A stretch of 64,000 nucleotides of DNA from Candidatus Omnitrophota bacterium (GCA_023247795.1 JAHFFT010000001.1:2868-66867), one strand, 5' to 3'. Counted from the first letter of the stretch, positions 11,490 through 60,161 are shown. The notes: generated from the sequence alone by a model not told the origin. Numbers and translations: made by a program.

Positions 11490-12611
11490 TTATAAAGAAT
11501 TGGTCTTTTGATCGACTTGCTCAAGTCCGGTGAGAGAACTCTTATACGAAGGAGTAAGAGCTAAGGCTTTATTGAACATCACTCGAGCAGCTTTCATACG
11601 TCTACGACTCGTTTTATTTTTTCCTTTGGCGGTCTTATCATTATCCCAGTAAAGATACGACCAACCGATCTTATCGTAAATTTCAGCATTTCTTTCATAC
11701 TTCAAAGCCTGTTTATAAATCCCTATGGCTTCTTGATATCGCTTTAAAGAAAACAAGCAATCTGCCCATTTGATTCGGGCGTCATTCCATTGCGGCTTCA
11801 GCCGAGTGGCCATTCGAAACTCTTTTAAGGCCTTTCCAAAATCCTGACGGCTAAAATTAAGATAACCTAATGCCCGATGAGCTTCCGGCTCAGTTTTAAC
11901 ATGCACGCCCCTTTGATATCGCATCCCTTTAACTAAGGCCCGCTGGAGATATTTTTCGGCAATCTCAACTTCTCCCTTTCGAAAATAACACCAACCCAGA
12001 CCTGCATAGGCATCAGAAGAATTAGAATCTATACTCAACGCTTGTTCAAAATAGTTAATGGCTTGGGCCCAATCTGATTTTTTAAAATTTGCCCAACCTC
12101 TCCCGGTATAAGCATCAACGACCTTAGGATCCACTAAAACCAAATCGCCAAACGTTTTGCTGGCACTCTCATAATCACCTTTACCAAAATAGGCCCACCC
12201 TAGCAAAGTCAAGGCCTCTGAACTCAAGGGATTCTGTCTCACTGCTTTCTCAAAATATTCAATGGCTTTCTCGTGATTGTTAACCGATAAATAATACGAC
12301 CCTTCTGAGGCATAACCTTTGCCTCGACGATCTCCGGTGGAAGTAAAAATGGGTTCTTCTCCTACATTAACAACGGTCATCGCCATTTCAACGGGCTTTG
12401 TTCCTATTTCATAAAGTGACTTAAAAAGTTCCGGTACCTGCTTGACATTCGTCATAGACTTCGCAACATCAACCGGTAGCTTCGCGATTCCCACAACCTC
12501 CTCTTTGACCAGTTTCGGCACTTTTTTAACGGTGGCAGCACAGCCGGTCATCATTCCTCCAGCCAGCAGCAGGGTGATGAATTGCAAACATGGGTATGAG
12601 GAAATTTTCAT
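11490..12611 (-). CDS. TPR-repeat lipoprotein
   Basis: Lipobox-like LLLAGGMMTGC at the N-terminus. Multiple TPR units (GWAYFGKGDYESA, GWANFKKSDWAQA, GWCYFRKGEVEIA). Confidence 0.75.
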   Translation of the reverse strand: MKISSYPCLQFITLLLAGGMMTGCAATVKKVPKLVKEEVVGIAKLPVDVAKSMTNVKQVPELFKSLYEIGTKPVEMAMTVVNVGEEPIFTSTGDRRGKGYASEGSYYLSVNNHEKAIEYFEKAVRQNPLSSEALTLLGWAYFGKGDYESASKTFGDLVLVDPKVVDAYTGRGWANFKKSDWAQAINYFEQALSIDSNSSDAYAGLGWCYFRKGEVEIAEKYLQRALVKGMRYQRGVHVKTEPEAHRALGYLNFSRQDFGKALKEFRMATRLKPQWNDARIKWADCLFSLKRYQEAIGIYKQALKYERNAEIYDKIGWSYLYWDNDKTAKGKNKTSRRRMKAARVMFNKALALTPSYKSSLTGLEQVDQKTNSL

Positions 12612-12628
12612 CGTAAGCCGTTCCTTCT

Positions 12629-14227
12629 TTAAAACTCGATATCCAAACCAAATTCCACTTGATAGGCGCCATCGGCCTCGCCATCCCGTCGAGGAGTAGG
12701 CGCGAATATGTTATTGGCGGCAGTATCGGCGCGGGTTTCCTTATAATAATCTCCCGGGAAAAAATATCCTGACAAAATACTAAACTTTATGGCTTTGGTG
12801 ATTTGATAACTAGCAAAGACATCCAATTCCTGGCCCAAGTCTTTTGAAAAAGTTTTTAAATTCCCATTGCCATCCAGACCCCATCCCGGTTCTTTTGAAC
12901 GCAAATACCAATAATCCACGCCGATATACCATTTTTCAAGTGGGGTATAATCAAATCCAACGGTCGAAGCAATCAAATTTTCAAACATGAAAGGGTCACC
13001 AAAGGTCCCGGGACGAGCGACGCCAAAATTGACCGCGTATCCGCCTGCCATTGCCACATAAGGACCAAACTGTTTCTGATAATGCGTATCGGTTAAATTG
13101 GTGTTTAATGGGGAAAAAACACTGAAGGCCTCATTTTCATTACTGGTGAGGGTAAGTTCATTATAATTCTGCGCGTTGAATCGGTTACCGGAGGCCATAA
13201 AAAATTTCGTCTTCGGTTTGAACGCCCCCAAATCATAACTGGCATCCGCAACCAAAAGATAACCTTTATGTTCGATATCATTTTGTGCCGTGTTGATGGC
13301 CTTCGCCTTTCCCAAATTTTGGTCCCCTTCAAACCCAAGATTCAGACGGTCAAAATTCAGTTTTAAATAAGCCCCTGGTGTCACAAGATCTTCGTTTTTC
13401 ACACGGGTGCTGAATCGACTTGCACGCGCACCTTCTGGTGTTCGATCCCTCAGCCAGCCGGTATAAAGTTGTAACCGTTGTTTACCCAATTTGAATGTCG
13501 TATCCGCCGTATAAAAGTAAGCATTGGTGTCATTCCAATCATTGACCTTCTCATGATCAATGACTTTTCCTAAATGAATACGATTATTCAGATCTTCTTT
13601 TTCCCAGTGGACATTCCAATCGAGTGATTCATTAACTCCAGAAAGGGTTAGCCCATAATTTTCATATTTTCCACCCAAGGCAATGTTATGACCAAGATCG
13701 CGTCCGTAAGGATACAGACCAAATTTGAAATTGACATCTTTCGTTGAATTCACCGGAACTTCCAGCCAGGTTTCTCTTAATCGAGGATATAAATCTGAGT
13801 TTTGGTACCAATGATACCGTCCAAATAAAGAGTTGATGCCACGGCTCCCATAAAGCGGGGCATCATAATCGGCGCGCCCCCTTCTTTCTACAAAAGAATA
13901 AAACTCAAGGCCGGAAAGATGGCGGAGATCAAAAGTAAAGTCATAAGCTAACCCAAGATAACTGGTCTTATCATTGTTATTCGCTAAATCAAGATCAACC
14001 GTATTGTTCACTAAATTATAAGACGTACGCAGGTGCGCTCCGGAATGAAATTTCCAATTTGATTCATCCAATAAAAAAGGATGTTTCTCAACATCCAAAT
14101 CTTTAACGTCTTTAAAATAACTCTGAGCATATATAGAGGAAGGCAGGGCAAATAAGGAAAGGAAAATAAAAATATTGACGAAAGGCTGAAGGAAAACTTT
14201 TTTACTTTTTTTGTTTTTACAAGTCAT
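12629..14227 (-). CDS. Outer-membrane beta-barrel protein (porin/exporter-like)
   Basis: The ORF-track start at 14269 is TTG. ATG 14227 gives MTCKNKKSKKVFLQPFVNIFIFLSLFALPSSIYA (signal peptide). Alternating amphipathic strands run throughout, and the C-terminus is FGLDIEF (aromatic terminal residue typical of OMPs). Confidence 0.65.
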   Translation of the reverse strand: MTCKNKKSKKVFLQPFVNIFIFLSLFALPSSIYAQSYFKDVKDLDVEKHPFLLDESNWKFHSGAHLRTSYNLVNNTVDLDLANNNDKTSYLGLAYDFTFDLRHLSGLEFYSFVERRGRADYDAPLYGSRGINSLFGRYHWYQNSDLYPRLRETWLEVPVNSTKDVNFKFGLYPYGRDLGHNIALGGKYENYGLTLSGVNESLDWNVHWEKEDLNNRIHLGKVIDHEKVNDWNDTNAYFYTADTTFKLGKQRLQLYTGWLRDRTPEGARASRFSTRVKNEDLVTPGAYLKLNFDRLNLGFEGDQNLGKAKAINTAQNDIEHKGYLLVADASYDLGAFKPKTKFFMASGNRFNAQNYNELTLTSNENEAFSVFSPLNTNLTDTHYQKQFGPYVAMAGGYAVNFGVARPGTFGDPFMFENLIASTVGFDYTPLEKWYIGVDYWYLRSKEPGWGLDGNGNLKTFSKDLGQELDVFASYQITKAIKFSILSGYFFPGDYYKETRADTAANNIFAPTPRRDGEADGAYQVEFGLDIEF

Positions 14228-14407
14228 TCTCAAAGATTGTTGAGATTCAAATTTTATAACATCTCGCAAACATTTTTTATCCTAAGCATTTTTCGTTTCA
14301 ATTGCAAGTTTTTTTTAAATTTTTTGTGGGACAGGCCAAAAATCCCGGGTATCAGGGATAAAAGATGTTGCTGGTAAAAGTCGTAAATCCTTTTTCTCGT
14401 CGAATGT

Positions 14408-14437
14408 ATTATAAAAATTTTTACTCTCACATAGCAA
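14408..14437 (-). promoter_or_regulatory. Candidate sigma70-type promoter for the OMP/TPR operon
   Basis: The minus strand reads TTGCTA - 18 nt - TATAAT. The -35 element lies inside the palindrome CATAGCAAA-CGGA-TTTGCTATG (14430..14451). Confidence 0.3.
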
Positions 14438-14483
14438 ACGGATTTGCTATGTCCAAAAAATTTATCCTAGAAGTCGGCTGGAA

Positions 14484-14513
14484 GAATTCCTCGCAGCTAG
14501 CTGCGAGGAATTC
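14484..14513. repeat. Perfect 30-bp palindrome of the CCTCGCAG...CTGCGAGG family
   Basis: GAATTCCTCGCAGCTAGCTGCGAGGAATTC is its own reverse complement. Confidence 0.9.
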
Positions 14514-14580
14514 GCTCGAGTAAAAACTGAAGATCAGAGGTATCGTGGTTTAACAGCAAGGATAAAATTCAATACTTAAC

Positions 14581-14670
14581 TCAAGTCTCATGTCTCATCT
14601 CATATCGCAGGTCGCAAGTCATTTGTAACTTGCGACTTGGTACCTGGGACTTGTTACTTTGTCACTTCGC
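14581..14670. repeat. 3'-UTR repeat block: hairpin plus ACTTG/CAAGT heptad units
   Basis: GTCGCAAGT-CATTTGTA-ACTTGCGAC hairpin (14611..14636). ACTTG-type units at 14628, 14635, 14649, 14656 and 14663. The block lies directly after the stop at 14678. Confidence 0.6.
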
Positions 14671-14677
14671 CGTGATG

Positions 14678-15778
14678 TTAATTGGGTCGCGGACCATCAC
14701 TGCCAAGGCCGCCCGGCTGACCACCAACATGATTGGCGTTATTCAGACCCGCGCCGCCCAGACCAGGTCTTTGCGTACCCTGACTTGATAATACCCCAGG
14801 CTTCGGCATGACAGGACCGACAGGCCGATTGCCATTTAACTCTTGATGGCCGGCTCCTTGCCCTTCCATTTGGGGAGATTGGTCGGACTGCATATTCCGC
14901 ATTTGACCTTGTTCTTCTTGACTATGCTCTTGCATCGCTCCCTTCGGTGCTTCATGTTGTACTTTTATCCCTCGCATTTTCTCATACTCGCTTTTCATTT
15001 GTTCTCGACGATCTTGCTGCTCTTCATGAGACGCTTGCATTTTCTCTTGATGCTGCTCTTTCATTTCCTGCAGCTGTTCATGCTCAGCATCCATCTGCTC
15101 TCGATACTCCTGTTGCTCTTCACGAACCGCTTGCATTTTCTCTTGATGCTGCTCTTTCATTTCCTGCAGCTGTTCATGTTGCGCCTTCATTTCTTCTCGC
15201 TGTTGCTGAAATTGTTCTTTATAAGCCTCTGCGCGTTCCGAATTAGCTAACGGCGGTTTTTGGTTAGGCCCGCTTATCAGTGGTCTATTCATTTCGCCCA
15301 TTGAAGCATTGGGACGAGAACCTTCTTGCTGATCACCCATAGGGCCATTATCACGTTGCCCCATCTGATCAGGTTGATTCATTGGTTGCTGCGAACCTTG
15401 ACGGTCATTATCTGTTCGTGGACCAACCTGAGAATTGCCTTGTTCACCTTGCTGCGCACCCGATTGCGGACGATTTTGTTCTCCACCCATACGATTGCCC
15501 TGAGATCCACCCTGGCCTTGCATTCCCGATCCGTTGGGCCGATCGTTATTCATACCAGGATCTCCTCTTTGGCCTCCTGGACCGCCAGAACCACCAGGTC
15601 CACCTGCTCCGCCTTGACCACCTTGATGTCCAGCGTTCATACCCTGTCCCGGACCGCCATGTCCACCTGGACCTCCAGCTCCCGGACCACCACCCGGCCG
15701 CGGCCCTTGCTGGGCGAAAACCACACCCGAAAGCGCTAAGCAAAAAATTCCAATCAAAGCCATGATTCTCATTTTCAT
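14678..15778 (-). CDS. Secreted low-complexity G/P/Q/E/M/H-rich protein
   Basis: Signal peptide MKMRIMALIGIFCLALSGVVFAQQ. A good SD (AAGGAAAGG) precedes the ATG. Composition-biased throughout, with the internal repeat EQLQEMKEQHQEKMQA. Confidence 0.75.
   Translation of the reverse strand: MKMRIMALIGIFCLALSGVVFAQQGPRPGGGPGAGGPGGHGGPGQGMNAGHQGGQGGAGGPGGSGGPGGQRGDPGMNNDRPNGSGMQGQGGSQGNRMGGEQNRPQSGAQQGEQGNSQVGPRTDNDRQGSQQPMNQPDQMGQRDNGPMGDQQEGSRPNASMGEMNRPLISGPNQKPPLANSERAEAYKEQFQQQREEMKAQHEQLQEMKEQHQEKMQAVREEQQEYREQMDAEHEQLQEMKEQHQEKMQASHEEQQDRREQMKSEYEKMRGIKVQHEAPKGAMQEHSQEEQGQMRNMQSDQSPQMEGQGAGHQELNGNRPVGPVMPKPGVLSSQGTQRPGLGGAGLNNANHVGGQPGGLGSDGPRPN
15032..15178. repeat. Intragenic direct repeat (51 bp identical, 96-bp period)
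   Basis: 15032..15082 and 15128..15178 both read CGCTTGCATTTTCTCTTGATGCTGCTCTTTCATTTCCTGCAGCTGTTCATG. Confidence 0.9.
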
Positions 15779-15816: not shown

Positions 15817-15845
15817 AAAAAAACCTATTCCCCAAAGAGAATAGG
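15817..15845 (-). terminator. Intrinsic terminator (riboswitch expression platform)
   Basis: Minus-strand RNA is CCUAUUC-UCUUUGGG-GAAUAGG followed by U7. It lies between the aptamer and the SD/ATG of 14678..15778. Confidence 0.75.
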
Positions 15846-15859
15846 CTTAATTCAAAACA

Positions 15860-15945
15860 CTTGATTCGGTAATCAGGCTATCCTCTCTTAAAGGACCCTT
15901 GACTTTGCGCCCCACTGTTACCAGTGGTTTGCCTTTTCGTCAGAC
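15860..15945 (-). promoter_or_regulatory. c-di-GMP-I (GEMM-I) riboswitch aptamer
   Basis: Minus-strand RNA is ACGAAAAGGCAAACCACUG-GUAA-CAGUGGGGCGCAAAGUCAAGGGUCC...GGAUAGCCUGAUUACCGAA. This carries the GGCAAACC / GNRA-capped hairpin / GCGCAAAG / UUACCGA core of GEMM-I. Confidence 0.8.
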
Positions 15946-16018: not shown

Positions 16019-19000
16019 CTAAAATTCTTGTAAAGACTTAACTCTTTTTGTTTCTTGATGATAGCTCAATTGCTCTTCGTTCGGTGGAACCGTTTTCCCG
16101 ATCAGAGCTGGTAAATTGGTCACAGGCTTGATCTCCATGATGATCGGCAGAAAGCCATCAAATTGTAAATTTTTAATCTGCTCCGGATCAAAATCAAACT
16201 TGATTGCTGGCCCTTCATTTTGAATCATCAGCTCCAAATTTTCCGGATTCAAGTCGATACCACCAACCTCCGATGAAGCATTTTGCGGAGCAATGGTAAT
16301 CGCCGACACCTGTGGATTATTTGTATTACCTAGAAAAAAGGAATCCTTCATCCCCGGAGCTAATACCAAATTTTGGTCTAATAAATCAAGATCATTGCTG
16401 TCTCCGTTTTCTTTCTTAACTTGATTTTTAGCAATGTCCCAGACCCCGCCAAACCCAAAATCGAAAGCCTTGCCAGCCCACCCAGGGTATCGAGCAAAAT
16501 CAATCTGAACAGCATTATCTTCTGCCATAACCGGCTTTCCAGTCTCTGGATCTCTGACCATCACTTTTCCCGTGGGATCAAAATAAAGTCCTAAATCCAA
16601 ATGCCAATTGACAATTTCTTGCGCGGTCTGCCGACTTTCACCGTTTGTTACCGCAAATGCCTTGGATTCAATCAACTGATTGATTTGGGCGGAAGCACTT
16701 TCTGACAAATCATGAGCGCTTTCAGAACGAGGCTTGGCATACCAAGATCTTTGAATCTCACCGGTTTCCGGGTCAAAGAGGGCCATGACCGCCTCCTGCC
16801 TTTTCCATTTGTATTGACCGGTAACGGTCGAATAAGTATCACTGCTGTAATAAAGTTCCATCCGATTATCACGCGAAGCCAAAACATAAATACGGTCGTG
16901 CATAAAAAACGCTTGATGGAACAGAAACAAATTGGGTTTACCTTCGGTTGTATTTTGACGGTTCTGCCTGACATATCTGGCAAATGCCTCTTTTGTGGGA
17001 GCATCCTTCGCGTTGATCACCTTGAATGAGTAATCCCCGCTGTTCACTTCGCCGATGACGCGATCTTCATCCCTGCGCCATTGAGCTTTTTTGTTTTTCT
17101 TGATCAGAAGTCTCTTGACCCGCCCCAATTCAACCGCCTTGGAAAATTTATAGCTCCGATATTTGTAGATCAATTCCGAAATGACGTATTTGAGATCCAC
17201 CACCTTCTCTGCCTTCTCAAATTGATAAACCAAAACGAGGTAATGCGTGATCAAAGCAAGAATATCGGCCTGATCACCCTCAGTTTTTACACCGAGTTCT
17301 TTGTCAACATCACGGATAAAATCCTGATCAATATACTCAGCCAGTTTTAGAATCCCATCTTTATCTTTCCCTAAAAAATATTTTTTCATCTCATCATTAA
17401 CTTCGATCGCCATTATTGTGTTCAACCGTTCTATTCTCCTTTCAAGCTTTAGTATTTCCTCTTGACCAAAATTTTCCTTTAACTGTAATTTTAGTAGCAC
17501 TAATTCATGCCTTCGTTCCGCGTTAGTCATTAATATGCTGCGGACTGGCACTTGAGTAAATTTGTGATACCCATTCGCCGTTAGGACCGGTGCTAAACGA
17601 TTCGCCTGAGCAAAAAAGTCAGCCCGATCTGACGGGTTTGTTGTAAGAACGATATCCAAGGCCAAAGCAATGAGATTGAGAATATTCCGGTAGCGGTCTG
17701 GATCAGATTGAAAAATCTTAGCCAAAGGAAAATCGACATCTAACTTGAAACGATTTCTTTCTTTTTCATCATTTTGGACAACAATCTTTAAAACGTTGCC
17801 GGGGCTGCGCTTTTTTATCGTTTTCTTGATTCGATCTCGATCGATATCCGCTTTCGTGATCTCATTGATCGCCATGGTTCCTTCTGTTCCAGCGGTCCCC
17901 TCGATTTCATCCTCGAATGCTTCAGGAACAGGTACGAGAGGGATATCCGACTTGGATTCTTTATGGCCTTCGACAATGGCAGCAATCGTTTGCTGTTGAA
18001 AATCTGTGAGATCTTCATCAACACCTGGTTTCGGTGTTCGAACAGGAAACCCTTTGCCAATCTCGGCCAAGACGGGTTTCAATTCACTCCATTCCTTAAT
18101 AGGCAATTTAGTAAATCGAGAACTTTCTCTCAATAAAACCAACCGCGAATAAATCCTGCCGACATGGCTTTCTGGTTCCAGTTCATCCAGTTCATGCAGA
18201 TCGATGGCTTCCAGCAACTCCGCGATATCATCCCTCGTTGCCTCAATCCTTTCCAAGTCACTCGCCACCGTCTGGCGAAAATACTCCATGACAACCTCTG
18301 ACGATTCCAAAATTTTTTTCATAGCGAACATCGCTTCTTCATCATCCATTTGATCACGGACCGAATTCATCCCTCTCGCGAAATAGCGAGTACATACCTC
18401 TGGTTCTCTTTCAAATTTCCCCAAAATCTTCGCAATCAACCCCTCACGTAATGCTGCTGCTAATTTTTGCACGTTCACACTGAATTTATTTTCCCTTCGA
18501 ATCATATCAAATGTTATAAGCTGACTGGCCGTAAGCTCTTGCTGACCTTTCCCACGTAAAATCTTGACCGCTTGCGGCAATTGCTTTTGTTGCGTTAGAA
18601 TGACGGCTAAAATCAATCGCTTTTGATCATCGGTCAATTGCGCGCTTTCTTTGATTCGCTTTTTTTCATCCAAATAATCCTGATTGGCATCAGCGACCAG
18701 GAACTTAACCGCGCGTTGCAAATATTCTGGCATTGCCTTGAGCATTTTATTATTTTGTAAAACATATCTTTGGTTTCCAGAATCGGGATCAAAAATTCTT
18801 CCGCAGCGCGTTGCGATGATTTTAAAAGGATACGAATCCCCGACCGAATCGTTATGAGTGGGTTCAAAATCAATCTTGCCCTCATCATCAATTCGACCTT
18901 CCAGCATCGTGGGCGTATACTCACTATGCATCGCCTCGGTTATCAAAACCTTTTCAACGGATTGATGGAACCGGCTTCTTTGATTTATCGCCAAGCTTTG

Positions 19001-22000
19001 AATTTTTTTGTCCGAAAGCGTAAACGCGCTTTTCCACGCAACACCGATGCCATTTTTCGATTTCAAATCTTGAATCTGAAACCGATACCCTTGCTGTTCA
19101 CTGCCCAAAACTTGAACTGAAAAATTCCTTCCCGAAAGCTTATCGTCATTCGCGAATAATAGCTCTGCCCCAGCACCCCTACCAACGATAAATTCCTTAC
19201 CTACGCTAAATGCCCTCACATCCCCAGCTAGTGCTGTGTCAATTGTTTTATCTGGAAACGCCTGTAGGTAGGCACGATCACCCGCAACCCAAAGCCGATA
19301 CCAACCTGTTCCGGCTTGGATCCAAACATCATCAATCAACTCTTGCATTCCCGTATCCAAGACCTTCTCTTCCCTCGTTTTCATATTTCTATCGTCTAAG
19401 ACTTGATCTTTAGTTTTGACCATCCTTTCCCATTCCACGGTGATGGATCTATCTGTATAAGTCCCTGTCTTAACTCGATAATTCTCTGTCCCTGGAATAG
19501 GGTCTACGACGATATAACAATGTTCCGATTGAAGGTTGGGATCATTCGGGAAATAAAGTTCATCGATCTGCTTATTTTTTCCAAAAGCATGGAGCTCTCC
19601 TAAACTTATTTTGTAAACTTTCGATTCGTTTGAGGGCGGACCATTCTTGATGTCATGCTGCAGGACCCGGACCTGGTTGTTCACAACCCGAATACTGTAC
19701 CAAAATTTTCCACCCTCGGGCTGGATCCACTGGACCCTACCGGGCAACAAAACAAATTCAACCGGTGCCGGAGTTTGCGATTCTCCCCGCCTATTGTTCG
19801 TCGGAGCCAAAACAACCGGCTTGCCCGCTTTTGTTTTCATATACCTTGCTGTTGCTCCTACTTTGGGAGCTGAATTAACCACAGCAGCATTGTCCATCGA
19901 TCTTTGAATGCCAATCAGATTGGATAAATTCTGATAGACACGGTGATAAAATCTTGCGTCTTGAGGAAAAAAGTCGGAGTCATAAATAAGACGGTTTGCC
20001 CACCCCAATGATAACCAATCCTTTTTCCGCAATTCGCTCATGATTTCAGCCTTTTCCACGAGACTTAAAACTTTCTCTTGTTTGAAATAATTTAAGGCTG
20101 CGTCATAATCATTTTTTAAAAGCGCCCCTAACAATTTAAAAGTTGCGTCGTTTTCTTTAGAATCACTTTGCATTTCACGCAAATATTGCACCAAATGATC
20201 CGCAGAAACTTGTTGAGGATATCTCTCTTGTAATTTCGCTTTCACGCGATTTTTAACTCGCAAAAAATTTTCGGTCGCATGTTCACCAAGCAAATAAGAA
20301 CGCTGCAACTCAGGTGTTTTCATGAAATTGAGCATTAAAGCATTGTCCACCGTACCAAAATAAGGATGAGCCTCTAGCGCATCCATATAACTACTCATTT
20401 TAGCAACGACTGCATCAAAGTCGTCGAAATCACCAGCGCTATACCCATCCTTCATGAGTGCCTCGGCAATGCCCTCTATCATTCGATCTTCATCAGGATT
20501 TTGAGATTCCACTGCGGTACCGATGGTGCTGACTTTATCTTGACGACCCGCGTTGGAATCAAGCAGTTGCTCCCGGTCCTGCTCGGTATATGCCCCGGTC
20601 CCCGTTCGTTGATCCGCCGTGACCCATTCTGCCGGTTGTTCCAGCAGTCCTAACTGCTCTCTGGCCCGTTTGATTTTGACCCGCCCATTGATTTCACTCA
20701 GCTCGTGCTGTTCGACCGCCTCGGTCATATCGTCGCTGAAACCGAGGACAATCCACTCTCCCCGGACCTTATCGAAATAGTTGATCGCCTTGATCCCGGC
20801 CTTGGCTCCGGTTTTACTGCTCATATGGTTGATCACCCATTTATCAAAAACTTTTCCTAATTCTGTTTCTTTCGCCCCGCGATCAATGCGGATGACCTTG
20901 ACTTTGTAGTTTAAGTCCTTTTGATTGATAACTTGCTGCCCCTCATAATCCAAGGTCTCGCCTGCTGCCACCTGCTGCTCAATCGACGGAGAAGCTGTTG
21001 GCAAAAACCCATTCTGGTCAAGAAGCCCAACGATATGATTCAAAATCTGGTCTTCACTGGCGTTTTCAGGAAGTTTTTTCCCCTTGGCAACGGTGTTCAA
21101 CAAACGAATCATCCGGTTATAATAGGTTACCGGGGTGACAACCGCGGAGGCATTATAAACTTTTTGGTTTTCTAATTGCGCGGAGGTTAAATTCTGAGCT
21201 TCTGATGAGACATCAATGGTGGTGACACCACTAACCTCTGTTCCTTTAAATCCTCCGGAAAAATATTTCCTCGGGATGGAGGCTTGAAGATACGGATCAT
21301 AATCTTCTTTGATGTAGTTATAAACCCCCTGCTTGAAGGCCGCGATATACTGCTCATAAATCTGCTGTTGACCGTCCTTGTCATCTGAATCAACTCCGAC
21401 GACCTTATTTTTATCCACATAAATGCTGTCGAGAATGCTTTCGCGCAACTTCTTTTTGAACCAGGTCGCGAGGATCATGGCGTTGTAAATCTGGCGCAAT
21501 TGGGCAAAATTCTGACCTTCATTGACTTCTTTTTCGATCGTCGGTAAAACGATTTTCTTGACGATGTCTGAAGAAAAAGTACTGACGCTACCAACATCCG
21601 TGTTAGTCAATGACTCCGTCCCTAAATTTTTATTGCCTCGATTGGAATCCAGAGCGAGATAATCTTCTTCCAACATCACCTGCAAATGACTTTCAATCAC
21701 AAAAGCGGTCGCGCCATTTTCATAGACCCGGGCCTTGTCAGGAACAATCCAGACTTTATTGAAGGTATTGATCGGGACGTTGGTGGTACCATATTCCTGA
21801 TAGGCCTTTTCATAAATTTCCTTCCAAAACTGCGCACCCAGCTCTTTTTCCGGGTAGATCAAAGAGGCAGTGATTTGCTTTAACAGATAGTCCTGGGCCA
21901 AAAGATCGCGCCCCATCTCGGTCTGACCAAACTGTTCGGGAATGATCCGATTTTCTTCATAGGGCGACAAATTGACCCACAAGTCCTTTTCCGGGACCGT

Positions 22001-22300
22001 CAGGGTTGCTAAAAAATATTTGATCATCTTTTGCGATTCTTCCTTCAAGGCTTGATCAGACAGCGTTTGGTCCCCAGGTGTTACGATGAAATCAAACCGA
22101 AAAGGGTTATTAGGGAAAACCTTCACCCCCTTTAACAAGGCCGGCGCAAAGGCCTGGCTTAGCCCGACCATCGAGCCTGCCTGCGGAAGATTGAGCGGTT
22201 GAATTTGCGCGAAACCATTCCCGGGGCTGATCAGATTGAAAAAAAAAGTGAAAATAATCAGCAGATTGATACTTCGATATTTTTTGATTTGCTTTGCCAT
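16019..22300 (-). CDS. Giant secreted protein (2093 aa), function unknown; two FHA-like segments and a C-terminal domain shared with 60206..64000
   Basis: Single uninterrupted ORF. Signal peptide MAKQIKKYRSINLLIIFTFFFNLISPGNGFA. FHA-like stretches are encoded at ~19427..19600 and ~19033..19190 (FIVGRGAGAELLFANDDKLSGRNFSV...IQDLKSKNGIGVAW). The C-terminal sequence is VGGIDLNPENLELMIQNEGPAIKFDFDPEQIKNLQFDGFLPIIMEIKPVTNLPALIGK. Confidence 0.8.
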   Translation of the reverse strand: MAKQIKKYRSINLLIIFTFFFNLISPGNGFAQIQPLNLPQAGSMVGLSQAFAPALLKGVKVFPNNPFRFDFIVTPGDQTLSDQALKEESQKMIKYFLATLTVPEKDLWVNLSPYEENRIIPEQFGQTEMGRDLLAQDYLLKQITASLIYPEKELGAQFWKEIYEKAYQEYGTTNVPINTFNKVWIVPDKARVYENGATAFVIESHLQVMLEEDYLALDSNRGNKNLGTESLTNTDVGSVSTFSSDIVKKIVLPTIEKEVNEGQNFAQLRQIYNAMILATWFKKKLRESILDSIYVDKNKVVGVDSDDKDGQQQIYEQYIAAFKQGVYNYIKEDYDPYLQASIPRKYFSGGFKGTEVSGVTTIDVSSEAQNLTSAQLENQKVYNASAVVTPVTYYNRMIRLLNTVAKGKKLPENASEDQILNHIVGLLDQNGFLPTASPSIEQQVAAGETLDYEGQQVINQKDLNYKVKVIRIDRGAKETELGKVFDKWVINHMSSKTGAKAGIKAINYFDKVRGEWIVLGFSDDMTEAVEQHELSEINGRVKIKRAREQLGLLEQPAEWVTADQRTGTGAYTEQDREQLLDSNAGRQDKVSTIGTAVESQNPDEDRMIEGIAEALMKDGYSAGDFDDFDAVVAKMSSYMDALEAHPYFGTVDNALMLNFMKTPELQRSYLLGEHATENFLRVKNRVKAKLQERYPQQVSADHLVQYLREMQSDSKENDATFKLLGALLKNDYDAALNYFKQEKVLSLVEKAEIMSELRKKDWLSLGWANRLIYDSDFFPQDARFYHRVYQNLSNLIGIQRSMDNAAVVNSAPKVGATARYMKTKAGKPVVLAPTNNRRGESQTPAPVEFVLLPGRVQWIQPEGGKFWYSIRVVNNQVRVLQHDIKNGPPSNESKVYKISLGELHAFGKNKQIDELYFPNDPNLQSEHCYIVVDPIPGTENYRVKTGTYTDRSITVEWERMVKTKDQVLDDRNMKTREEKVLDTGMQELIDDVWIQAGTGWYRLWVAGDRAYLQAFPDKTIDTALAGDVRAFSVGKEFIVGRGAGAELLFANDDKLSGRNFSVQVLGSEQQGYRFQIQDLKSKNGIGVAWKSAFTLSDKKIQSLAINQRSRFHQSVEKVLITEAMHSEYTPTMLEGRIDDEGKIDFEPTHNDSVGDSYPFKIIATRCGRIFDPDSGNQRYVLQNNKMLKAMPEYLQRAVKFLVADANQDYLDEKKRIKESAQLTDDQKRLILAVILTQQKQLPQAVKILRGKGQQELTASQLITFDMIRRENKFSVNVQKLAAALREGLIAKILGKFEREPEVCTRYFARGMNSVRDQMDDEEAMFAMKKILESSEVVMEYFRQTVASDLERIEATRDDIAELLEAIDLHELDELEPESHVGRIYSRLVLLRESSRFTKLPIKEWSELKPVLAEIGKGFPVRTPKPGVDEDLTDFQQQTIAAIVEGHKESKSDIPLVPVPEAFEDEIEGTAGTEGTMAINEITKADIDRDRIKKTIKKRSPGNVLKIVVQNDEKERNRFKLDVDFPLAKIFQSDPDRYRNILNLIALALDIVLTTNPSDRADFFAQANRLAPVLTANGYHKFTQVPVRSILMTNAERRHELVLLKLQLKENFGQEEILKLERRIERLNTIMAIEVNDEMKKYFLGKDKDGILKLAEYIDQDFIRDVDKELGVKTEGDQADILALITHYLVLVYQFEKAEKVVDLKYVISELIYKYRSYKFSKAVELGRVKRLLIKKNKKAQWRRDEDRVIGEVNSGDYSFKVINAKDAPTKEAFARYVRQNRQNTTEGKPNLFLFHQAFFMHDRIYVLASRDNRMELYYSSDTYSTVTGQYKWKRQEAVMALFDPETGEIQRSWYAKPRSESAHDLSESASAQINQLIESKAFAVTNGESRQTAQEIVNWHLDLGLYFDPTGKVMVRDPETGKPVMAEDNAVQIDFARYPGWAGKAFDFGFGGVWDIAKNQVKKENGDSNDLDLLDQNLVLAPGMKDSFFLGNTNNPQVSAITIAPQNASSEVGGIDLNPENLELMIQNEGPAIKFDFDPEQIKNLQFDGFLPIIMEIKPVTNLPALIGKTVPPNEEQLSYHQETKRVKSLQEF

Positions 22301-22450
22301 GCTTTGTAAATGGTTGAAATTCCGTAATATGTTATACCTTTAAAAGTATAACACCTGATGATAGGAATGAAAGGCGTGGGGGGTTTTGGGAGGAAGCGCT
22401 TTCACGATACTTTAAGGAGGTTAGGGTAGGGACTTCTTTGCAGAGATCAA

Positions 22451-22498
22451 GCTACAAGTCTCAAGTTGCAAGTTGCAAGATACTTGAACTTGAGACTG
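22451..22498. repeat. Phased CAAGTNN heptad array forming a hairpin (3' UTR of 22515..23105)
   Basis: CAAGT at 22455, 22462 and 22469, and CAAGA at 22476 (exact 7-nt phasing). The inverted AACTTGAGACT pairs with AGTCTCAAGTT. Confidence 0.7.
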
Positions 22499-22514
22499 GA
22501 ACCATCGCTGTCCC

Positions 22515-57024: not shown

Positions 57025-57078
57025 TTTAATCCCCTCCTTTCTTTTAACCATTGCTGCCTGCATCATCAGCTGTCGTAA

Positions 57079-57226: not shown

Positions 57227-57267
57227 TCCTCCCCTACTTTTCTCACCTCTGAGAACCTCTCAATTAG

Positions 57268-57538: not shown

Positions 57539-58720
57539 TTATTCATTCAAAGATTGTATCCGTTGATAACAATCAAGAACATTCAGGTAGGAATGAATTG
57601 AAACATCTTCCCTGTTAAATTCATTTTTGCCTCCATAAACGACAGCCCGGCCCAACATATCTTTGCCAGCCAAACGCTTTAGAAAATCAAGGCCTTTAAA
57701 AAATTCCTCATGTATGGTCTGCCCCGCTTTGATTTCGACACTCATAATCCGGCGGGCCTTTTCGATGATCAGGTCCACCTCGCTGCCGTGATTATCCCTA
57801 AAAAAATAAAGCGGCGCCTCTCGCCCCTGCGACCAAAAATATTTCAAGAATTCAATGACCACAAAATTTTCAAACAAGGCACCCCGCAAAGGATCACGGC
57901 TCATCTGAGAAGACTTTTCGATCCCCAGCAAATATGCCGCGAGTCCGGTATCGTAAAAATACATTTTAGGGGCCTTAATGATCCTTTTCTTCCAATTACG
58001 GTAATAAGCTGGAAGCAAAAAAACCACATAGCTCGCTTCCAGAACAGACATCCATTCCTTGATCGTCGTATGCGAAACCCCTAAGTCATTGCTGATACTA
58101 GAGAGGTTAAGTATTTGACCGATCCGCCCGGCGCATAGTTTCAAAAATTTCTGGAATGAAGAAAGGTTCTTGACATTGATGACCTGCCGCACGTCCCGTT
58201 CCACATAGGTCGCGACATAGTCGCGCATCGCGTCGGAAGGGTCAATCTTTTGATCAAAAATCCTGGGGAAAAACCCTGTGTGGACAATGTCATCCGCTGT
58301 ACGCTTTTGGATCAAAGAACGGATTTCCTCCACCGAAAAGGGCAAAAGTTTCAGGACGGCCGTACGGCCGGCCAAAGACTGCCGAATGGACCGCAATAAC
58401 AAAAGGTTCTGACTACCACTGAGAATATACAGACCATTTTTGTTACGTTCATCGACAATCCCCTGAAGATAAGAAAGGATTTCCGGGACCCGTTGGACTT
58501 CATCCAGAATAGCTCCTTCAGGATAACGGCCCAGAAACCCCCTGGGATCCTGCATGGCTAGTTCACGAATATCCGGAATCTCAAAAGAAAGATAAGATTT
58601 TTTGGGGAAAACTTTACGGCACAACGTGGTTTTGCCGGATTGCCTAGGCCCGGTCACCGAAACAACCGGATAATGTCTGGCGGATTCCCTGAGTTTGGCT
58701 TCAAGAATTCTAGTGATCAT
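57539..58720 (-). CDS. AAA+ ATPase with C-terminal PD-(D/E)xK nuclease-like domain (AAA_14/DUF4143-type architecture)
   Basis: ATG 58720 gives MITRILEAKL. Walker A GPRQSGKTT, Walker B AILDEVQRVPE, and C-terminal GSEVDLII...MSVEIKAG (D...ExK). The ORF-track extension to 58864 reads through repeat copy 2. Confidence 0.75.
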   Translation of the reverse strand: MITRILEAKLRESARHYPVVSVTGPRQSGKTTLCRKVFPKKSYLSFEIPDIRELAMQDPRGFLGRYPEGAILDEVQRVPEILSYLQGIVDERNKNGLYILSGSQNLLLLRSIRQSLAGRTAVLKLLPFSVEEIRSLIQKRTADDIVHTGFFPRIFDQKIDPSDAMRDYVATYVERDVRQVINVKNLSSFQKFLKLCAGRIGQILNLSSISNDLGVSHTTIKEWMSVLEASYVVFLLPAYYRNWKKRIIKAPKMYFYDTGLAAYLLGIEKSSQMSRDPLRGALFENFVVIEFLKYFWSQGREAPLYFFRDNHGSEVDLIIEKARRIMSVEIKAGQTIHEEFFKGLDFLKRLAGKDMLGRAVVYGGKNEFNREDVSIHSYLNVLDCYQRIQSLNE

Positions 58721-58791
58721 AAATAAACCATACCACATCTTGTACAGTTTGCAAGTTAAATATTCAATTAGTACAGATTTGTTCTCAAACC

Positions 58792-58909
58792 TTAATTCCC
58801 AAAAAGGTCGACAGATCGTAAAGCGGCTGGACATTGATGATGACCGGGACAAAACCTGGAGCATTTTGCAATTGTTTGAGCAGGGCGGGATCGAGATGAA
58901 ATTGGATTT
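58792..58909 (-). repeat. Orphan copy 2 of the 3' end of gene 60206..64000 (118 bp, about 89 percent identical by hand count)
   Basis: Aligns base for base with 60210..60327, with 13 mismatches by my count. It retains the frame KIQFHLDPALLKQLQNAPGFVPVIINVQPLYDLSTFLGIKV-stop. No homologous sequence lies upstream of it. Confidence 0.85.
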
Positions 58910-58976
58910 TTATGGAATACACAATTCTTCGGTTGTTTTAAAAATATTATTGACAAAGGCTCCATATTCGTCGAAA

Positions 58977-60161
58977 ATGGAGTCTATGCAATACATATTA
59001 AGACTGACCGAAAACGATATCCAAAACTCTTTACAACGCAATAAAAGTGTTTTATTGTTGGGCGCTCGTCAAACCGGTAAAACAACCCTCATTCAGCGGC
59101 TGCCGGCCGACTTGTCGATTTCCTTTGTCCGTCCGGATGTCAGGCAGCAATACGAAAAAAACTCCACGCTTTTAGTGGGAGAAGTTGAAGCACTAAAGAG
59201 CAAAACGCCCGCGGCTCGCCCCTTGGTTGTTTTAGATGAGGTCCAGCGTGTCCCAGAAATACTCGACATCGTTCAGGATCTCATTGATCGAAAAATAGCC
59301 AACTTTATTTTAACCGGATCCTCCGCAAGAAAATTACGCCATGGATCTCACATCAACCTTCTTCCGGGAAGAGTGACGGCTTTAAAACTAAATCCACTTA
59401 ACATTCAAGAAATTCCGCAAACAGATCTTAAAACGCATTTGCTCTACGGCTCTTTGCCGGCTATTCATCAGGTTACTTCACTGAAAGACAAAGAAATCGA
59501 CCTAAGCTCTTATGTCATCACCTACCTCGAGGAAGAAATCCGTGCCGAAGCGATTGTTAGAAATTTAGGGCCGTTTGCCCGCTTTCTGGAATCAGCGGCT
59601 ATTGAATCAGGAAAGGTCGTGAACTTCAGAAAACTTTCTCAAGAAATCGGTGTTGCCCACACAACCATTGCCTCTTATTATCAAATTTTGGAAGACTGCC
59701 TGATTGTCGAAAAAATAATGCCACTGACAAAAAGCGAAACACGCAAAAAGCTGACCAAAACCCATAAATATATCTTTTTCGATATGGGCGTTCGACGGCT
59801 CACCGCGCATCAAAATACTCAATTGACCAAAGAAATGTGGGGATATCTGTTCGAACAATTCATTGGACTTCAGCTCATTCAACTAGCCGAGCTCTCCGAT
59901 AAAAATATCCAGATCAAATTTTGGCGAGATCCCGATGGCCCGGAAGTAGACTTTATTGTCGACAACAATCATAGCTACTTGCCTCTAGAAGTCAAATGGA
60001 CAAAAAGCCCTACAGCAAAAGACGTTAAACATCTGAAAGTATTCTTAAATGAATATCCCAATGCTAAACAAGCCTATCTCATCTGCCAATGTGAGCGGGA
60101 TGTTGCCCTTGAAAAAAACATTACCGCAATCCCCTGGCAAAAAATAAAAAATATTTTTTAA
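58977..60161 (+). CDS. AAA+ ATPase with C-terminal PD-(D/E)xK nuclease-like domain (second, divergent paralogue)
   Basis: ATG 58977 gives MESMQYILRL. Walker A GARQTGKTT, Walker B VVLDEVQRVPE, and C-terminal GPEVDFIV...LPLEVKW. The ORF-track start at 58695 is an antisense read-through of repeat copy 2. Confidence 0.75.
   Translation: MESMQYILRLTENDIQNSLQRNKSVLLLGARQTGKTTLIQRLPADLSISFVRPDVRQQYEKNSTLLVGEVEALKSKTPAARPLVVLDEVQRVPEILDIVQDLIDRKIANFILTGSSARKLRHGSHINLLPGRVTALKLNPLNIQEIPQTDLKTHLLYGSLPAIHQVTSLKDKEIDLSSYVITYLEEEIRAEAIVRNLGPFARFLESAAIESGKVVNFRKLSQEIGVAHTTIASYYQILEDCLIVEKIMPLTKSETRKKLTKTHKYIFFDMGVRRLTAHQNTQLTKEMWGYLFEQFIGLQLIQLAELSDKNIQIKFWRDPDGPEVDFIVDNNHSYLPLEVKWTKSPTAKDVKHLKVFLNEYPNAKQAYLICQCERDVALEKNITAIPWQKIKNIF

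What the first reader, a model, noticed from the sequence alone, without database searches (positions are those of the whole stretch)
16019..22300. 2093-aa secreted giant protein of unknown function sitting directly upstream of a c-di-GMP riboswitch
This is a single 6.3-kb ORF with a clear signal peptide and no enzymatic motif that I can recognise.

- It has two segments with FHA-like signatures: ...LQSEHCYIVVD...YRVKTGTY...SITVEW and FIVGRGAGAELLFANDDKLSGRNFSV...IQDLKSKNGIGVAW.
- It has a long alpha-helical middle region.
- Its C-terminal ~55-aa domain is shared with the other large protein in the window.

Proteins of this size in small-genome uncultivated bacteria are often cell-surface or host-interaction factors. 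Extracytoplasmic FHA-like modules would be unusual.
Basis: partly seen in the sequence, partly recalled or inferred. Interest (0 to 1): 0.55.

Follow-up and report, generated by a model that had tools for sequence, protein, structure and literature searches.

The report
Cysteine-free exported "cap–cargo–cap" Omnitrophota protein
The 2093-aa gene is real and belongs to a very large, unannotated, Omnitrophota-only family of nearly cysteine-free exported proteins, in which a conserved N-terminal domain and a conserved C-terminal domain bracket freely swapped cargo (here two FHA-type modules and a fold with no known relative); the c-di-GMP riboswitch next door controls a different gene.

Summary
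ORF 16019..22300 (-) is intact and encodes 2093 aa. It has a cleavable Sec-type signal peptide (GFA|Q), two FHA-type modules, helix-prone orphan stretches, and a ~57-aa C-terminal domain shared with the window's other large protein.

Residues 32-350 form a domain present in more than 3400 database proteins and at least 572 loci of GTDB species-representative genomes. The records seen are labelled Omnitrophota, or "uncultured Planctomycetales" in one assembly series. Every complete member also ends in the C-terminal domain. Members are 766 to more than 3700 aa, occur at least 6 per genome and often sit in tandem.

The cargo between the two caps is almost always unrelated between members. It includes many cytoplasm-type enzymes and signalling domains. 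Members are almost free of cysteine (median 0.07% against 1.04% in neighbouring genes).

Neither cap, nor the confidently modelled ~430-aa "module D", matches Pfam, NCBIfam or any PDB sequence. Module D also has no PDB fold match. The N-cap model was too weak to settle its fold.

Best reading: a Sec-exported modular protein whose caps are handles for a shared envelope export or anchoring step, probably used in host or prey interaction. The riboswitch association is incidental.

The parts
22208..22300 (-). Signal peptide, aa 1-31, with predicted signal peptidase I site GFA|Q32.
   Evidence: The sequence shows an n-region, a 14-aa h-region and a small-x-small site. There is no 19-aa TM-grade hydrophobic window. 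The x[YF]A|Q site is conserved in register across homologues.
21251..22207 (-). N-cap, aa 32-350. Family-defining conserved domain with motifs LNLPxxG, NPxxFDF, WVNLSPYE, TEMGRDLLAQDY, NTFNKVWI; ends in KYFSGG.
20501..21250 (-). N-cap extension, aa 351-600: an alpha/beta region shared by only a subset of the family.
   Evidence: 18 of 119 homologues align beyond aa 480. Model pLDDT is 55-79 for aa 380-550.
19739..20500 (-). Orphan, helix-prone segment, aa 601-854.
   Evidence: Almost no homologue coverage in this stretch (0-2 of 119 listed hits per 50-aa block); the exhaustive search of 1.84 billion representatives, which covered aa 801 onward, found nothing for aa 801-854. High helix propensity and low Pro/Gly content.
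19406..19738 (-). FHA-type module 1, aa 855-965. Degenerate: GK replaces GR and the NG motif is lost.
   Evidence: The HMM of unit-2 homologues hits aa 862-960 at E 3.5e-11. Alignment A3 shows the substitutions.
18995..19396 (-). FHA-type module 2, aa 969-1102. It has an N-terminal W-x-AG-x-Y-x-W hairpin extension. It keeps GR (1040-1041), S1056 and NG (1083-1084), but the His is replaced by N1059.
   Evidence: HMM hit at E 1.4e-40. Homologues carry PF00498 at the aligned place. Profile A3 matches solved FHA domains with E down to 5e-7.
17714..18994 (-). Orphan helix-prone middle, aa 1103-1529.
   Evidence: No homologue in the exhaustive search. Composition is helix-prone. Only two sub-threshold Pfam matches (RAC_head E 0.018, PLipase_C_C E 0.096), neither near its cut-off.
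16406..17713 (-). Module D, aa 1530-1965: a helical half plus an alpha/beta half. Motifs include IDxDFxRDV, YKFSKAV, and (A/S)RDxRxELYY(T/S)SxTYSxV(A/T)GQ.
16094..16264 (-). C-cap, aa 2013-2069: GGIDLNP...IKFDFDP...FDGFLPIIMEIKPVTNLPALIGK.
   Evidence: Present in all 119 listed homologues by HMM and in the window's other large protein. GGI[DN] occurs in 119 of 120 members. Always within 1-76 aa of the C-terminus. Low monomer confidence, pLDDT about 50-69. No Pfam, NCBIfam or PDB match.
16019..16093 (-). Polar C-terminal tail with an EEQLSYHQ motif (aa 2075-2082), followed by the stop codon.
   Evidence: A short [QEKP][LIM]S motif recurs in the last 14 residues of 39 of 119 family tails.
15821..15942 (-). 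Neighbour, not part of the gene: c-di-GMP-I-GGC riboswitch aptamer (15864-15942) plus a terminator-type hairpin (15821-15848) that control ORF 14678..15778.
   Evidence: Rfam 61.8 bits. Promoter-like sites at 16007-15965 and the terminator. RBS and ATG at 15778.

Best explanation
The gene encodes one member of a very large, multi-copy, Omnitrophota-restricted family of Sec-exported modular proteins. The layout is: cleavable signal peptide, conserved ~320-aa N-cap, variable cargo, conserved ~57-aa C-cap, short polar tail.

Shown:
- the architecture;
- the obligate pairing of the two caps;
- conservation of the caps while the cargo is exchanged;
- extreme cysteine depletion;
- dispersal through the genome without a fixed partner gene.

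Inferred:
- After Sec export and signal-peptide cleavage, the two caps act as common handles recognised by a separately encoded envelope machinery.
- That machinery moves the largely unfolded, disulfide-free polypeptide across the outer membrane or anchors it there.
- The cargo then acts at the cell surface or in or on a host or prey cell.

In this member the cargo is an FHA pair, one unit of which is plausibly still able to bind phosphothreonine, plus module D, a confidently folded domain with no known relative, joined by orphan helical spacers.

The adjacent c-di-GMP riboswitch regulates the next gene, not this one.
For: - Family size and range: 3413 proteins with E<=1e-3 among the 8000 candidates scored. 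At least 572 confirmed loci in GTDB species genomes. The best 80 are all labelled Omnitrophota, Omnitrophica, or 'uncultured Planctomycetales' in one TPA series.
- Cap pairing: all 119 listed hits carry both caps. In the 80 loci there are 97 N-cap ORFs. Nearly all complete ones end in the C-cap; the exceptions are mostly split ORFs, four of which are followed directly by a C-cap ORF.
- Copy number: tandem arrays of 2-3 genes, and at least 6 copies per assembly even within this subset.
- Cargo swapping: of protein pairs whose N-caps are 60-70% identical, 98% share less than 10% of their cargo. C-cap identity rises with N-cap identity, from 41% to 77%.
- Cargo content: phosphoglucomutase, UDP-glucose pyrophosphorylase, PGK, PGI, receiver, GGDEF, HATPase, methyltransferases, UbiB plus M48, helicases, HEAT, FHA.
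- Export: a signal-peptidase-I-type site is conserved in register. The h-region is too short for a membrane anchor, and this protein has no other hydrophobic segment.
- Cysteine: family median 0.07% (this protein 3 of 2093), against 1.04% in 550 neighbouring ORFs and 0.75% in neighbours with signal-peptide-like N-termini. 34 of 119 members have no Cys at all; the median is 1 per protein. From established knowledge of type V and type I secretion, Cys-poor passengers are typical of proteins that cross the outer membrane unfolded.
- No fixed neighbour gene: the most recurrent clusters are two-component systems, in 11-15 of 80 loci. This is as expected for substrates of a machinery encoded elsewhere.
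- C-cap structure: poorly ordered as a monomer, while module D in the same model is above pLDDT 90. This fits a signal or docking element.
- Not a mobile-element protein: 3 matches in 2.9 million viral contigs.
Against: - No export machinery, receptor or processing enzyme was identified.
- There is no experimental localisation.
- Neither cap resembles any known secretion or sorting domain, so their role is assigned by analogy only.
- The N-cap model is of modest quality (pLDDT 61), so its apparent lack of fold relatives is weak evidence.
- Cytoplasm-type cargo needs ATP, SAM or phosphoproteins, which are absent outside a cell. This fits delivery into another cell but is equally a puzzle for a simple surface location.
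- A few members have a TM-grade segment just after the N-cap, so topology may differ within the family.
- Assignment of the window itself to Omnitrophota is by family distribution only. No source names the organism.
Confidence: 0.6

Rival explanations
1. The family is a self-assembling surface coat or extracellular multi-enzyme matrix. This would build a layer around the tiny cell that displays variable domains. The caps would then be assembly modules rather than export signals.
For: - The two caps always occur together.
- The C-cap is poorly ordered alone and contains a beta-strand-like hydrophobic PVIINIxPV stretch.
- Copy number is high.
- N-cap and C-cap identities co-vary.
- A coat around an Omnitrophota cell has been proposed for a giant protein of V. 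archaeovorus (PMC10066038).
Against:
- Co-variation of the caps is also expected from whole-gene duplication.
- Kinase, methyltransferase and phosphopeptide-binding cargo has no obvious use in a cofactor-free exterior.
Confidence: 0.2
2. The protein is exported only into the periplasm, or tethered at the inner membrane. It would work there as a scaffold or regulator. The caps would be periplasmic folding or quality-control modules.
For: - Only Sec export is directly supported by sequence.
- Some members carry a TM-grade segment right after the N-cap.
- A 2026 preprint predicts mostly membrane-associated topologies for Omnitrophota proteins of 10 kaa or more (10.64898/2026.06.07.730766).
Against: - This member has no hydrophobic segment after the signal peptide.
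- Near-total loss of cysteine is not typical of resident periplasmic proteins. Neighbours with signal-peptide-like N-termini have 0.75% Cys.
- ATP- and SAM-dependent cargo would be inert in the periplasm.
Confidence: 0.1
3. The protein is a c-di-GMP-controlled adhesin or surface factor. On this reading the giant gene and the riboswitch form one regulatory unit, as the finding's title hints. This would parallel the PilZ genes that follow giant Omnitrophota genes.
For: - The riboswitch lies 76 nt after the stop codon.
- A second c-di-GMP riboswitch lies about 3 kb downstream of the window's other capped protein.
- West-Roberts et al. report PilZ genes downstream of most giant Omnitrophota genes.
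Against: - A riboswitch acts on the transcript downstream of it. Here it has its own promoter-like sites and a terminator hairpin, and it precedes ORF 14678..15778.
- The two riboswitch-controlled genes are unrelated to each other.
- None of 21 other family loci (437 kb) has a c-di-GMP riboswitch.
Confidence: 0.04
4. The protein is cytoplasmic, and the N-terminal hydrophobic stretch has been misread as a signal peptide. Alternatively, the ORF is an assembly artefact.
For: - The cargo domain types in the family are those of cytoplasmic proteins.
- No dedicated signal-peptide predictor was available.
Against: - The n/h/c pattern and the AxA-type site are conserved in register across more than 100 paralogues.
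- Cysteine is depleted 15-fold.
- The identical protein sequence is on record from two sources and on contigs of two lengths.
- Both caps are in frame.
- A 2093-codon stop-free frame at 44% GC cannot arise by chance.
Confidence: 0.03

Closest known systems
Type IX secretion cargo (Sec signal peptide plus conserved C-terminal domain, Por_Secre_tail)
   Same: An N-terminal Sec signal and a small conserved C-terminal domain are attached to very diverse cargo. The genes are dispersed around the genome, and the machinery is encoded elsewhere.
   Different: - The C-cap has no sequence match to PF18962 or TIGR04183.
- It is shorter, about 57 aa.
- It is followed by a polar tail.
- It is always paired with a 320-aa N-cap, which T9SS cargo lacks.
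- T9SS is a Bacteroidota system.
Two-partner secretion exoproteins (TpsA / CdiA)
   Same: A signal peptide is followed by a conserved N-terminal domain of about 250-320 aa on very large, Cys-poor proteins with polymorphic downstream parts.
   Different: - No match to the TPS domain PF05860.
- The N-cap model is alpha/beta with long helices, not a beta-helix.
- No adjacent TpsB/Omp85 gene.
- TpsA proteins have no conserved C-terminal cap.
MARTX toxins (conserved N- and C-terminal regions flanking swappable effector domains)
   Same: Conserved termini bracket an effector region that is exchanged by recombination. The cargo is of a type that acts in a cytoplasm.
   Different: - MARTX toxins use a type I system with no Sec signal peptide.
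- Their arms are glycine-rich repeats.
- They carry an autoprocessing cysteine protease domain.
- None of these features is present here.
Giant Omnitrophota proteins ('Archaeovorins' and multi-enzyme giants; West-Roberts et al. 2023 preprint; 2026 complete-genome preprint)
   Same: Same phylum and the same unusual repertoire of cytoplasm-type domains (PGM, PGI, HATPase, receiver, GGDEF, methyltransferase, HEAT) in proteins predicted to be extracytoplasmic.
   Different: - Those proteins are over 10-30 kaa, have many TM helices, and often carry SecA-DEAD or C39 domains.
- This one is 2.1 kaa with no TM helix.
- The passages of those papers I searched and read do not mention the N-cap/C-cap bracket.
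- Whether the giants carry the caps was not tested.
FHA domain (PF00498)
   Same: The profile of the module matches solved FHA domains. Unit 2 keeps the Gly-Arg, Ser and Asn-Gly positions.
   Different: - It sits behind a signal peptide.
- It has a conserved extra N-terminal hairpin (W-x-AG-x-Y-x-W).
- In unit 2 the His is replaced by Asn.
- Unit 1 has lost the binding residues.
- Pfam does not reach threshold on this protein itself.

Membership tests
N-cap/C-cap family of Omnitrophota (defined here) | Cleavable Sec-type signal peptide with an x-[YF]-A|Q site about 5-12 residues before the LNLPxPG motif | tested here: met
   GFA|Q at residues 29-32, and LNLPQAG at residue 36. The family pattern is shown.
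N-cap/C-cap family of Omnitrophota (defined here) | N-cap domain directly after the signal peptide | tested here: met
   aa 32-350, at 42-66% identity to 119 listed homologues.
N-cap/C-cap family of Omnitrophota (defined here) | C-cap (GGIDLNP...GFxPVIxxIxP...LG) within about 80 aa of the C-terminus | tested here: met
   aa 2013-2069, 24 aa from the end.
N-cap/C-cap family of Omnitrophota (defined here) | Near-absence of cysteine | tested here: met
   3 Cys in 2093 aa (0.14%). Family median 0.07%, neighbours 1.04%.
FHA domain (PF00498) | Significant match to an FHA sequence profile | tested here: inconclusive
   Direct Pfam scan: no FHA hit at E<=1. Through the family profile the result is positive. 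Unit 2 scores E 1.4e-40 and unit 1 E 3.5e-11 against the homologue HMM. That profile hits solved FHA domains at E 5e-7, and homologues carry PF00498 at the aligned place.
FHA domain (PF00498) | Phosphothreonine-binding residues (Gly-Arg, Ser-x-x-His, Asn-Gly) | tested here: inconclusive
   Unit 2 has GR, Ser and NG, but His is replaced by Asn. Unit 1 has GK, a shifted Ser, and no NG.
FHA domain (PF00498) | Eleven-stranded beta-sandwich fold | not tested
Type IX secretion cargo | C-terminal domain matching Por_Secre_tail (PF18962 / TIGR04183) | tested here: not met
   No such hit at E<=1 in Pfam or NCBIfam for the protein, nor in Pfam for 29 C-cap segments of the family.
Two-partner secretion exoprotein (TpsA) | N-terminal TPS domain (PF05860, beta-helix) and an adjacent TpsB transporter gene | tested here: not met
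   No PF05860 hit in 26 N-caps. The model is alpha/beta with long helices. There is no conserved neighbour other than two-component systems.
RTX / MARTX (type I secretion substrates) | No Sec signal peptide; glycine-rich nonapeptide repeats; C-terminal T1SS signal | tested here: not met
   A Sec signal peptide is present. There is no RTX repeat hit and no tandem repeat.
Sortase/exosortase-type C-terminal sorting signals (LPXTG, PEP-CTERM and relatives) | Short motif, then a TM helix, then a basic tail at the extreme C-terminus | tested here: not met
   In this protein the hydrophobic stretch of the C-cap contains Pro, Glu and Lys. Family tails are mostly acidic or polar. No NCBIfam hit.
Classical autotransporter (type Va) | C-terminal beta-barrel of about 250-300 aa | tested here: not met
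   The conserved C-terminal element is only about 57 aa, and there is no PF03797 hit.
Giant Omnitrophota 'Archaeovorin' proteins | More than 30,000 aa, numerous TM regions, divergent SecA DEAD helicase domain (West-Roberts et al. 2023 abstract) | tested here: not met
   2093 aa, no TM-grade segment, no SecA hit.
Gene under c-di-GMP riboswitch control | Aptamer in the 5' leader of the gene | tested here: not met
   The aptamer lies 76 nt after the stop codon and leads into ORF 14678..15778. The 214-nt region upstream of the giant gene has no Rfam hit.

The most novel reading that the evidence does not exclude
The two caps mark the substrates of a so far unrecognised protein export or sorting pathway in Omnitrophota. 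Dozens of cysteine-free cap-cargo-cap proteins per lineage, loaded with cytoplasm-type enzymes and signalling domains (here FHA plus a new fold), would be moved unfolded across the envelope and delivered into or onto host or prey cells. The conserved Gly-Gly boundaries, KYFSGG at the end of the N-cap and GGIDLNP at the start of the C-cap, would be processing sites that release the cargo.
Probability: 0.25. Interest if true: 0.85.

Novelty: new variant of a known kind. Interest (0 to 1): 0.62.

Why it matters
Omnitrophota are ubiquitous, uncultivated, ultra-small bacteria thought to live off other cells. How they interact with hosts is largely unknown.

- **A sequence definition.** The signal peptide, N-cap, C-cap and lack of cysteine together pick out thousands of candidate exported or host-interaction proteins. 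They explain why cytoplasm-type domains keep turning up in "extracellular" Omnitrophota proteins.
- **Two handles for experiments.** The conserved caps could be used to find the responsible machinery.
- **New domains.** Three domain families have no Pfam, NCBIfam or PDB sequence counterpart: the N-cap, the C-cap and module D. Module D is confidently modelled and has no PDB fold match.

For this particular gene, the practical message is that the riboswitch association should be dropped and the family context taken up.

Tried and rejected
- **Direct annotation.** Pfam, NCBIfam, PHROGs and PDB sequence searches of the whole protein gave nothing significant.
- **Word-index search of the middle.** A search with aa 601-2000 found only the protein itself and was a wasted search. 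The exhaustive HMMER search then showed that only the FHA unit and module D have any relatives.
- **Fold searches.**
  - In Foldseek, module D gave non-significant, recurrent histidine-kinase and PDK-like hits (E at least 0.1, TM no higher than 0.12). I rejected these as evidence.
  - The afdb50 library was unavailable.
- **Conserved partner gene.** Clustering the neighbours of 80 loci found only two-component systems and ABC ATPases, in no more than 15 of 80 loci.
- **Mobile-element or phage origin.** Rejected: 3 of 2.9 million viral contigs matched.
- **Riboswitch linkage.** Rejected.
- **C-cap as a TM anchor.** Rejected for this protein, because the stretch contains charged residues and prolines.
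- **Literature.** Searches found descriptions of giant Omnitrophota proteins but no description of the cap family in the passages searched. One paper I read, PMC10407285, was irrelevant.
- **Organism name.** Cluster look-ups returned no names.

Full report
**1. The observation**

The window holds one uninterrupted ORF on the minus strand, 16019..22300, starting at ATG and encoding 2093 aa. The identical protein is on record from NCBI and ENA, with a 137,881-bp longest contig on record and a 13,383-bp ENA contig that carries the same neighbours. It contains no tandem repeats.

The N-terminus has a basic n-region (KQIKKYR), a 14-residue hydrophobic core and GFA|Q at residues 29-32. No 19-residue window anywhere in the protein reaches membrane-helix hydrophobicity. 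This is therefore a signal peptide rather than an anchor.

An Rfam scan places a c-di-GMP-I-GGC aptamer at 15864..15942 (-), 76 nt after the stop codon. That aptamer has promoter-like sites upstream of it (16007-15965). A terminator-type hairpin (15848-15821) follows it, and then an RBS and the ATG of ORF 14678..15778. The title's positional statement is correct, but the riboswitch belongs to the next gene.

**2. What the protein is made of**

A search of 5.8 billion proteins returned 3413 significant hits among the 8000 candidates scored. Every source name given among the 120 listed is an Omnitrophota or Omnitrophica label, or 'Candidatus Aceula'.

Coverage mapping gives this picture:

| Region (aa) | Homologue coverage |
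|---|---|
| ~1-350 | all 119 listed homologues |
| ~350-600 | 18 of 119 (align beyond aa 480) |
| ~2010-2070 | 105 of 119 by BLAST, all 119 by HMM |
| everything between | almost none |

An exhaustive HMMER search of 1.84 billion cluster representatives with aa 801-2000 found only 28 proteins. They match just two stretches: aa ~978-1115 and aa ~1630-1978. The helix-prone stretch aa 1103-1529 has no detectable relative anywhere. The same holds for aa 801-854. The rest of the orphan stretch, aa 601-800, was covered only by the word-index searches, which found almost nothing there.

**3. The FHA claim**

Pfam does not call FHA on this protein. Three lines of evidence still support it:

- Homologues aligned to aa ~1037-1089 carry PF00498 exactly there: P0004, P0047, P0130, P0132, P0136, P0139 and P0141.
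- An HMM built from those segments hits the query twice, at aa 982-1099 (E 1.4e-40) and aa 862-960 (E 3.5e-11).
- The profile of the module matches 54 PDB sequences at E<=1. Nearly all are chains of well-known FHA-domain proteins by name (Rad53, GarA/OdhI, Rv0020c, CHFR, Nibrin and others), best E 5e-7.

The alignment shows a conserved N-terminal hairpin extension (W-x-AG-x-Y-x-W) in front of the FHA core. Unit 2 keeps Gly-Arg, the Ser and Asn-Gly, but has Asn in place of the His. Unit 1 has lost these residues.

**4. The caps define a family**

The best 80 are all in MAGs labelled Omnitrophota or Omnitrophica, or 'uncultured Planctomycetales' in one TPA series.

In those 80 loci I found 97 ORFs with the N-cap, always at the N-terminus:

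- Nearly every complete one ends in the C-cap. Of the exceptions, four are followed directly by a C-cap ORF, which suggests frameshifts or split genes.
- Lengths run from 766 aa to more than 3700 aa.
- Tandem arrays of two or three members are common (L033, L043, L067).
- Single assemblies contribute at least 6 copies even within this subset.

Conserved boundary and tail motifs:

- GGI[DN] opens the C-cap in 119 of 120 members.
- A [YFH][FI][SA]GG motif closes the N-cap in 110 of 120.
- Many tails end in a short [QEKP][LIM]S motif. Ours has EEQLSYHQ at aa 2075-2082.

Neither cap matches Pfam, NCBIfam or any PDB sequence, whether searched singly or as profiles.

**5. Caps are kept, cargo is swapped**

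I compared 181 complete members pairwise.

| N-cap identity of the pair | Pairs sharing <10% of cargo |
|---|---|
| 60-70% | 98% |
| 70-80% | 93% |
| >=80% | 55% |

Over the same range, C-cap identity climbs from 41% to 77%. The two caps are thus inherited together while the middle is replaced.

By the precomputed Pfam calls, the cargo of the listed homologues includes:

- metabolic enzymes: phosphoglucomutase, UDP-glucose pyrophosphorylase, phosphoglycerate kinase, glucose-6-phosphate isomerase;
- signalling domains: receiver, GGDEF, HATPase, FHA;
- others: SAM methyltransferases, UbiB kinase plus M48 peptidase, helicases, HEAT repeats.

The window's other capped protein (60206..>64000) carries an ART-PolyVal ADP-ribosyltransferase domain and a methyltransferase.

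Module D of our protein also occurs in large proteins that lack the caps. Those proteins have a different signal-peptide-plus-motif N-terminus (W-x-ERR[RK]N). Cargo modules therefore circulate among more than one family of proteins with secretion-type N-termini.

**6. Evidence on location**

- The signal-peptidase-type site is conserved in register across paralogues.
- The family is almost free of cysteine.

| Protein set | Cysteine content |
|---|---|
| Family (median) | 0.07% |
| This protein | 3 of 2093 (0.14%) |
| Window's other capped protein | 3 of 1263 by my count of the translation |
| 550 neighbouring ORFs | 1.04% |
| Neighbours with signal-peptide-like N-termini | 0.75% |

34 of 119 members have no Cys at all, and the median is 1 per protein. 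From what is established for autotransporter and two-partner passengers and for type I substrates, such depletion is typical of proteins that must stay disulfide-free to cross the outer membrane unfolded. I take it as the strongest indirect evidence that the whole polypeptide, cargo included, leaves the cytoplasm.

- No gene is consistently adjacent. The only recurrent neighbours are two-component systems, in 11-15 of 80 loci. This is what one sees for substrates of a machinery encoded elsewhere.
- The family is essentially absent from viral contigs: 3 of 2.9 million.

**7. Structure**

The C-cap in the same model has pLDDT of only about 50-69. This fits an element that folds on a partner.

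**8. Most likely mechanism**

Shown:

- the architecture (Sec signal, N-cap, swappable cargo, C-cap);
- the obligate pairing of the caps;
- the cysteine depletion;
- dispersal through the genome and multi-copy status.

Inferred:

- After Sec export and cleavage at Ala31|Gln32, the caps serve as common handles for an envelope step, either outer-membrane passage or anchoring.
- The cargo works at the surface or in a partner cell.

The cytoplasm-type cargo needs phosphoproteins, NAD, SAM or ATP, and these exist only inside a cell. That favours delivery into a host or prey. It also fits the host-dependent or predatory lifestyle proposed for the phylum (PMC10066038; West-Roberts et al.). This last step is the least supported.

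The main rival is a self-assembling coat in which C-caps dock on N-caps. I could not test it because the structure jobs were exhausted.

The Gly-Gly boundaries of both caps suggest processing sites. C39 peptidase domains are reported to be common in giant Omnitrophota proteins. This is only a lead.

**9. Comparison with known systems**

The family works most like three known kinds of secretion substrate: type IX cargo, two-partner exoproteins and MARTX toxins. It fails the defining sequence tests of each (see the membership table).

It shares phylum and domain repertoire with the giant Omnitrophota proteins described in two preprints. It lacks their size, TM helices and SecA or C39 domains. 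The passages of those papers that I searched and read do not mention the cap bracket. That is absence in what I read, not proof that the family has never been described.

**10. The riboswitch**

The two riboswitch-controlled genes in the window are unrelated to each other:

- a secreted Gly-rich 366-aa protein, followed by an Alginate_exp-like porin and TPR proteins;
- a mechanosensitive-channel-like protein.

None of 21 other family loci (437 kb) contains a c-di-GMP riboswitch. The adjacency is a feature of this genome, which has two such riboswitches in 64 kb. It is not a feature of the family.

**11. Verdict**

The interest lies not in this single ORF but in the family it reveals. I rate it a new variant of a known kind: modular exported proteins with conserved handling domains, built from three domains that have no Pfam, NCBIfam or PDB sequence counterpart.

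Interest is 0.62. It would be higher if a dedicated export pathway or delivery into prey were shown.

Noticed in passing
window 58792-58909 and 60210-60327 (with ORFs 58695..60161 + and 57539..58864 -): A 118-nt direct repeat (89% identical) duplicates the C-cap-coding 3' end of the other large gene. The downstream copy is an orphan fragment (...IQFHLDPALLKQLQNAPGFVPVIINVQPLYDLSTFLGIKV*). The 1.4-kb segment between the copies carries an AAA_14/DUF4143 ATPase gene, and a second such gene follows. This looks like an insertion or recombination event at the conserved cap-coding DNA.
   Followed up: partly
window 60206-64000 (-): The other large ORF runs off the window, with more than 1263 aa visible. 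It carries an ART-PolyVal ADP-ribosyltransferase domain, a class I methyltransferase and the same C-cap. By my count of the translation it has only 3 Cys. It is probably a second family member whose N-cap lies beyond the window.
   Followed up: partly
window 15821-15942 (-) and 11490-15778 (-): The c-di-GMP-I-GGC riboswitch with its terminator hairpin precedes a possible envelope or exopolysaccharide-type operon. The operon encodes a secreted Gly-rich 366-aa protein with no Pfam match, a 546-aa Alginate_exp-like beta-barrel, and TPR proteins.
   Followed up: partly
window 57145-57227 (-) and 56368-57081 (-): A second c-di-GMP-I riboswitch (73.4 bits) lies upstream of a 237-aa protein with a mechanosensitive-channel TM-helix domain. 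Two such riboswitches in 64 kb contrasts with none in 437 kb of related loci.
   Followed up: partly
proteins P0123, P0124, P0125, P0133 (also P0121, P0127): Module D also occurs in large (2.2-4.5 kaa), Cys-poor proteins that lack both caps. P0123, P0124, P0125 and P0133 have a signal-peptide-like N-terminus followed by a different conserved motif (W-x-ERR[RK]N). This may be a second 'capped' family of proteins with secretion-type N-termini.
   Followed up: no
loci L016 (8629-8701), L032 (9606-9694), L052 (9711-9781), L061 (9485-9558): In 3 of the 21 loci scanned, a tRNA gene lies 200-450 nt upstream of the family gene; in L016 it lies about 1.3 kb upstream. This could point to island-like insertion sites.
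   Followed up: no
proteins P0006, P0033, P0035, P0071, P0076, P0103, P0114: A subset of family members has a TM-grade hydrophobic segment directly after the N-cap, at aa ~363-460. Their topology may differ from that of the window's protein.
   Followed up: no
window 27264-29633 (-): A single 789-aa ORF combines Mur-ligase (MurC-like) domains and D-Ala-D-Ala ligase domains. It lies within a cell-division/cell-wall (dcw-type) cluster next to FtsQ and FtsA.
   Followed up: no
window 22440-22500 (-), intergenic region upstream of the giant gene: Imperfect repeats (…caagttcaagtatcttgcaacttgcaacttgagacttgtagcttga…) lie between the FMN-reductase gene and the giant gene. The simple scans called no promoter or terminator there.
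   Followed up: no
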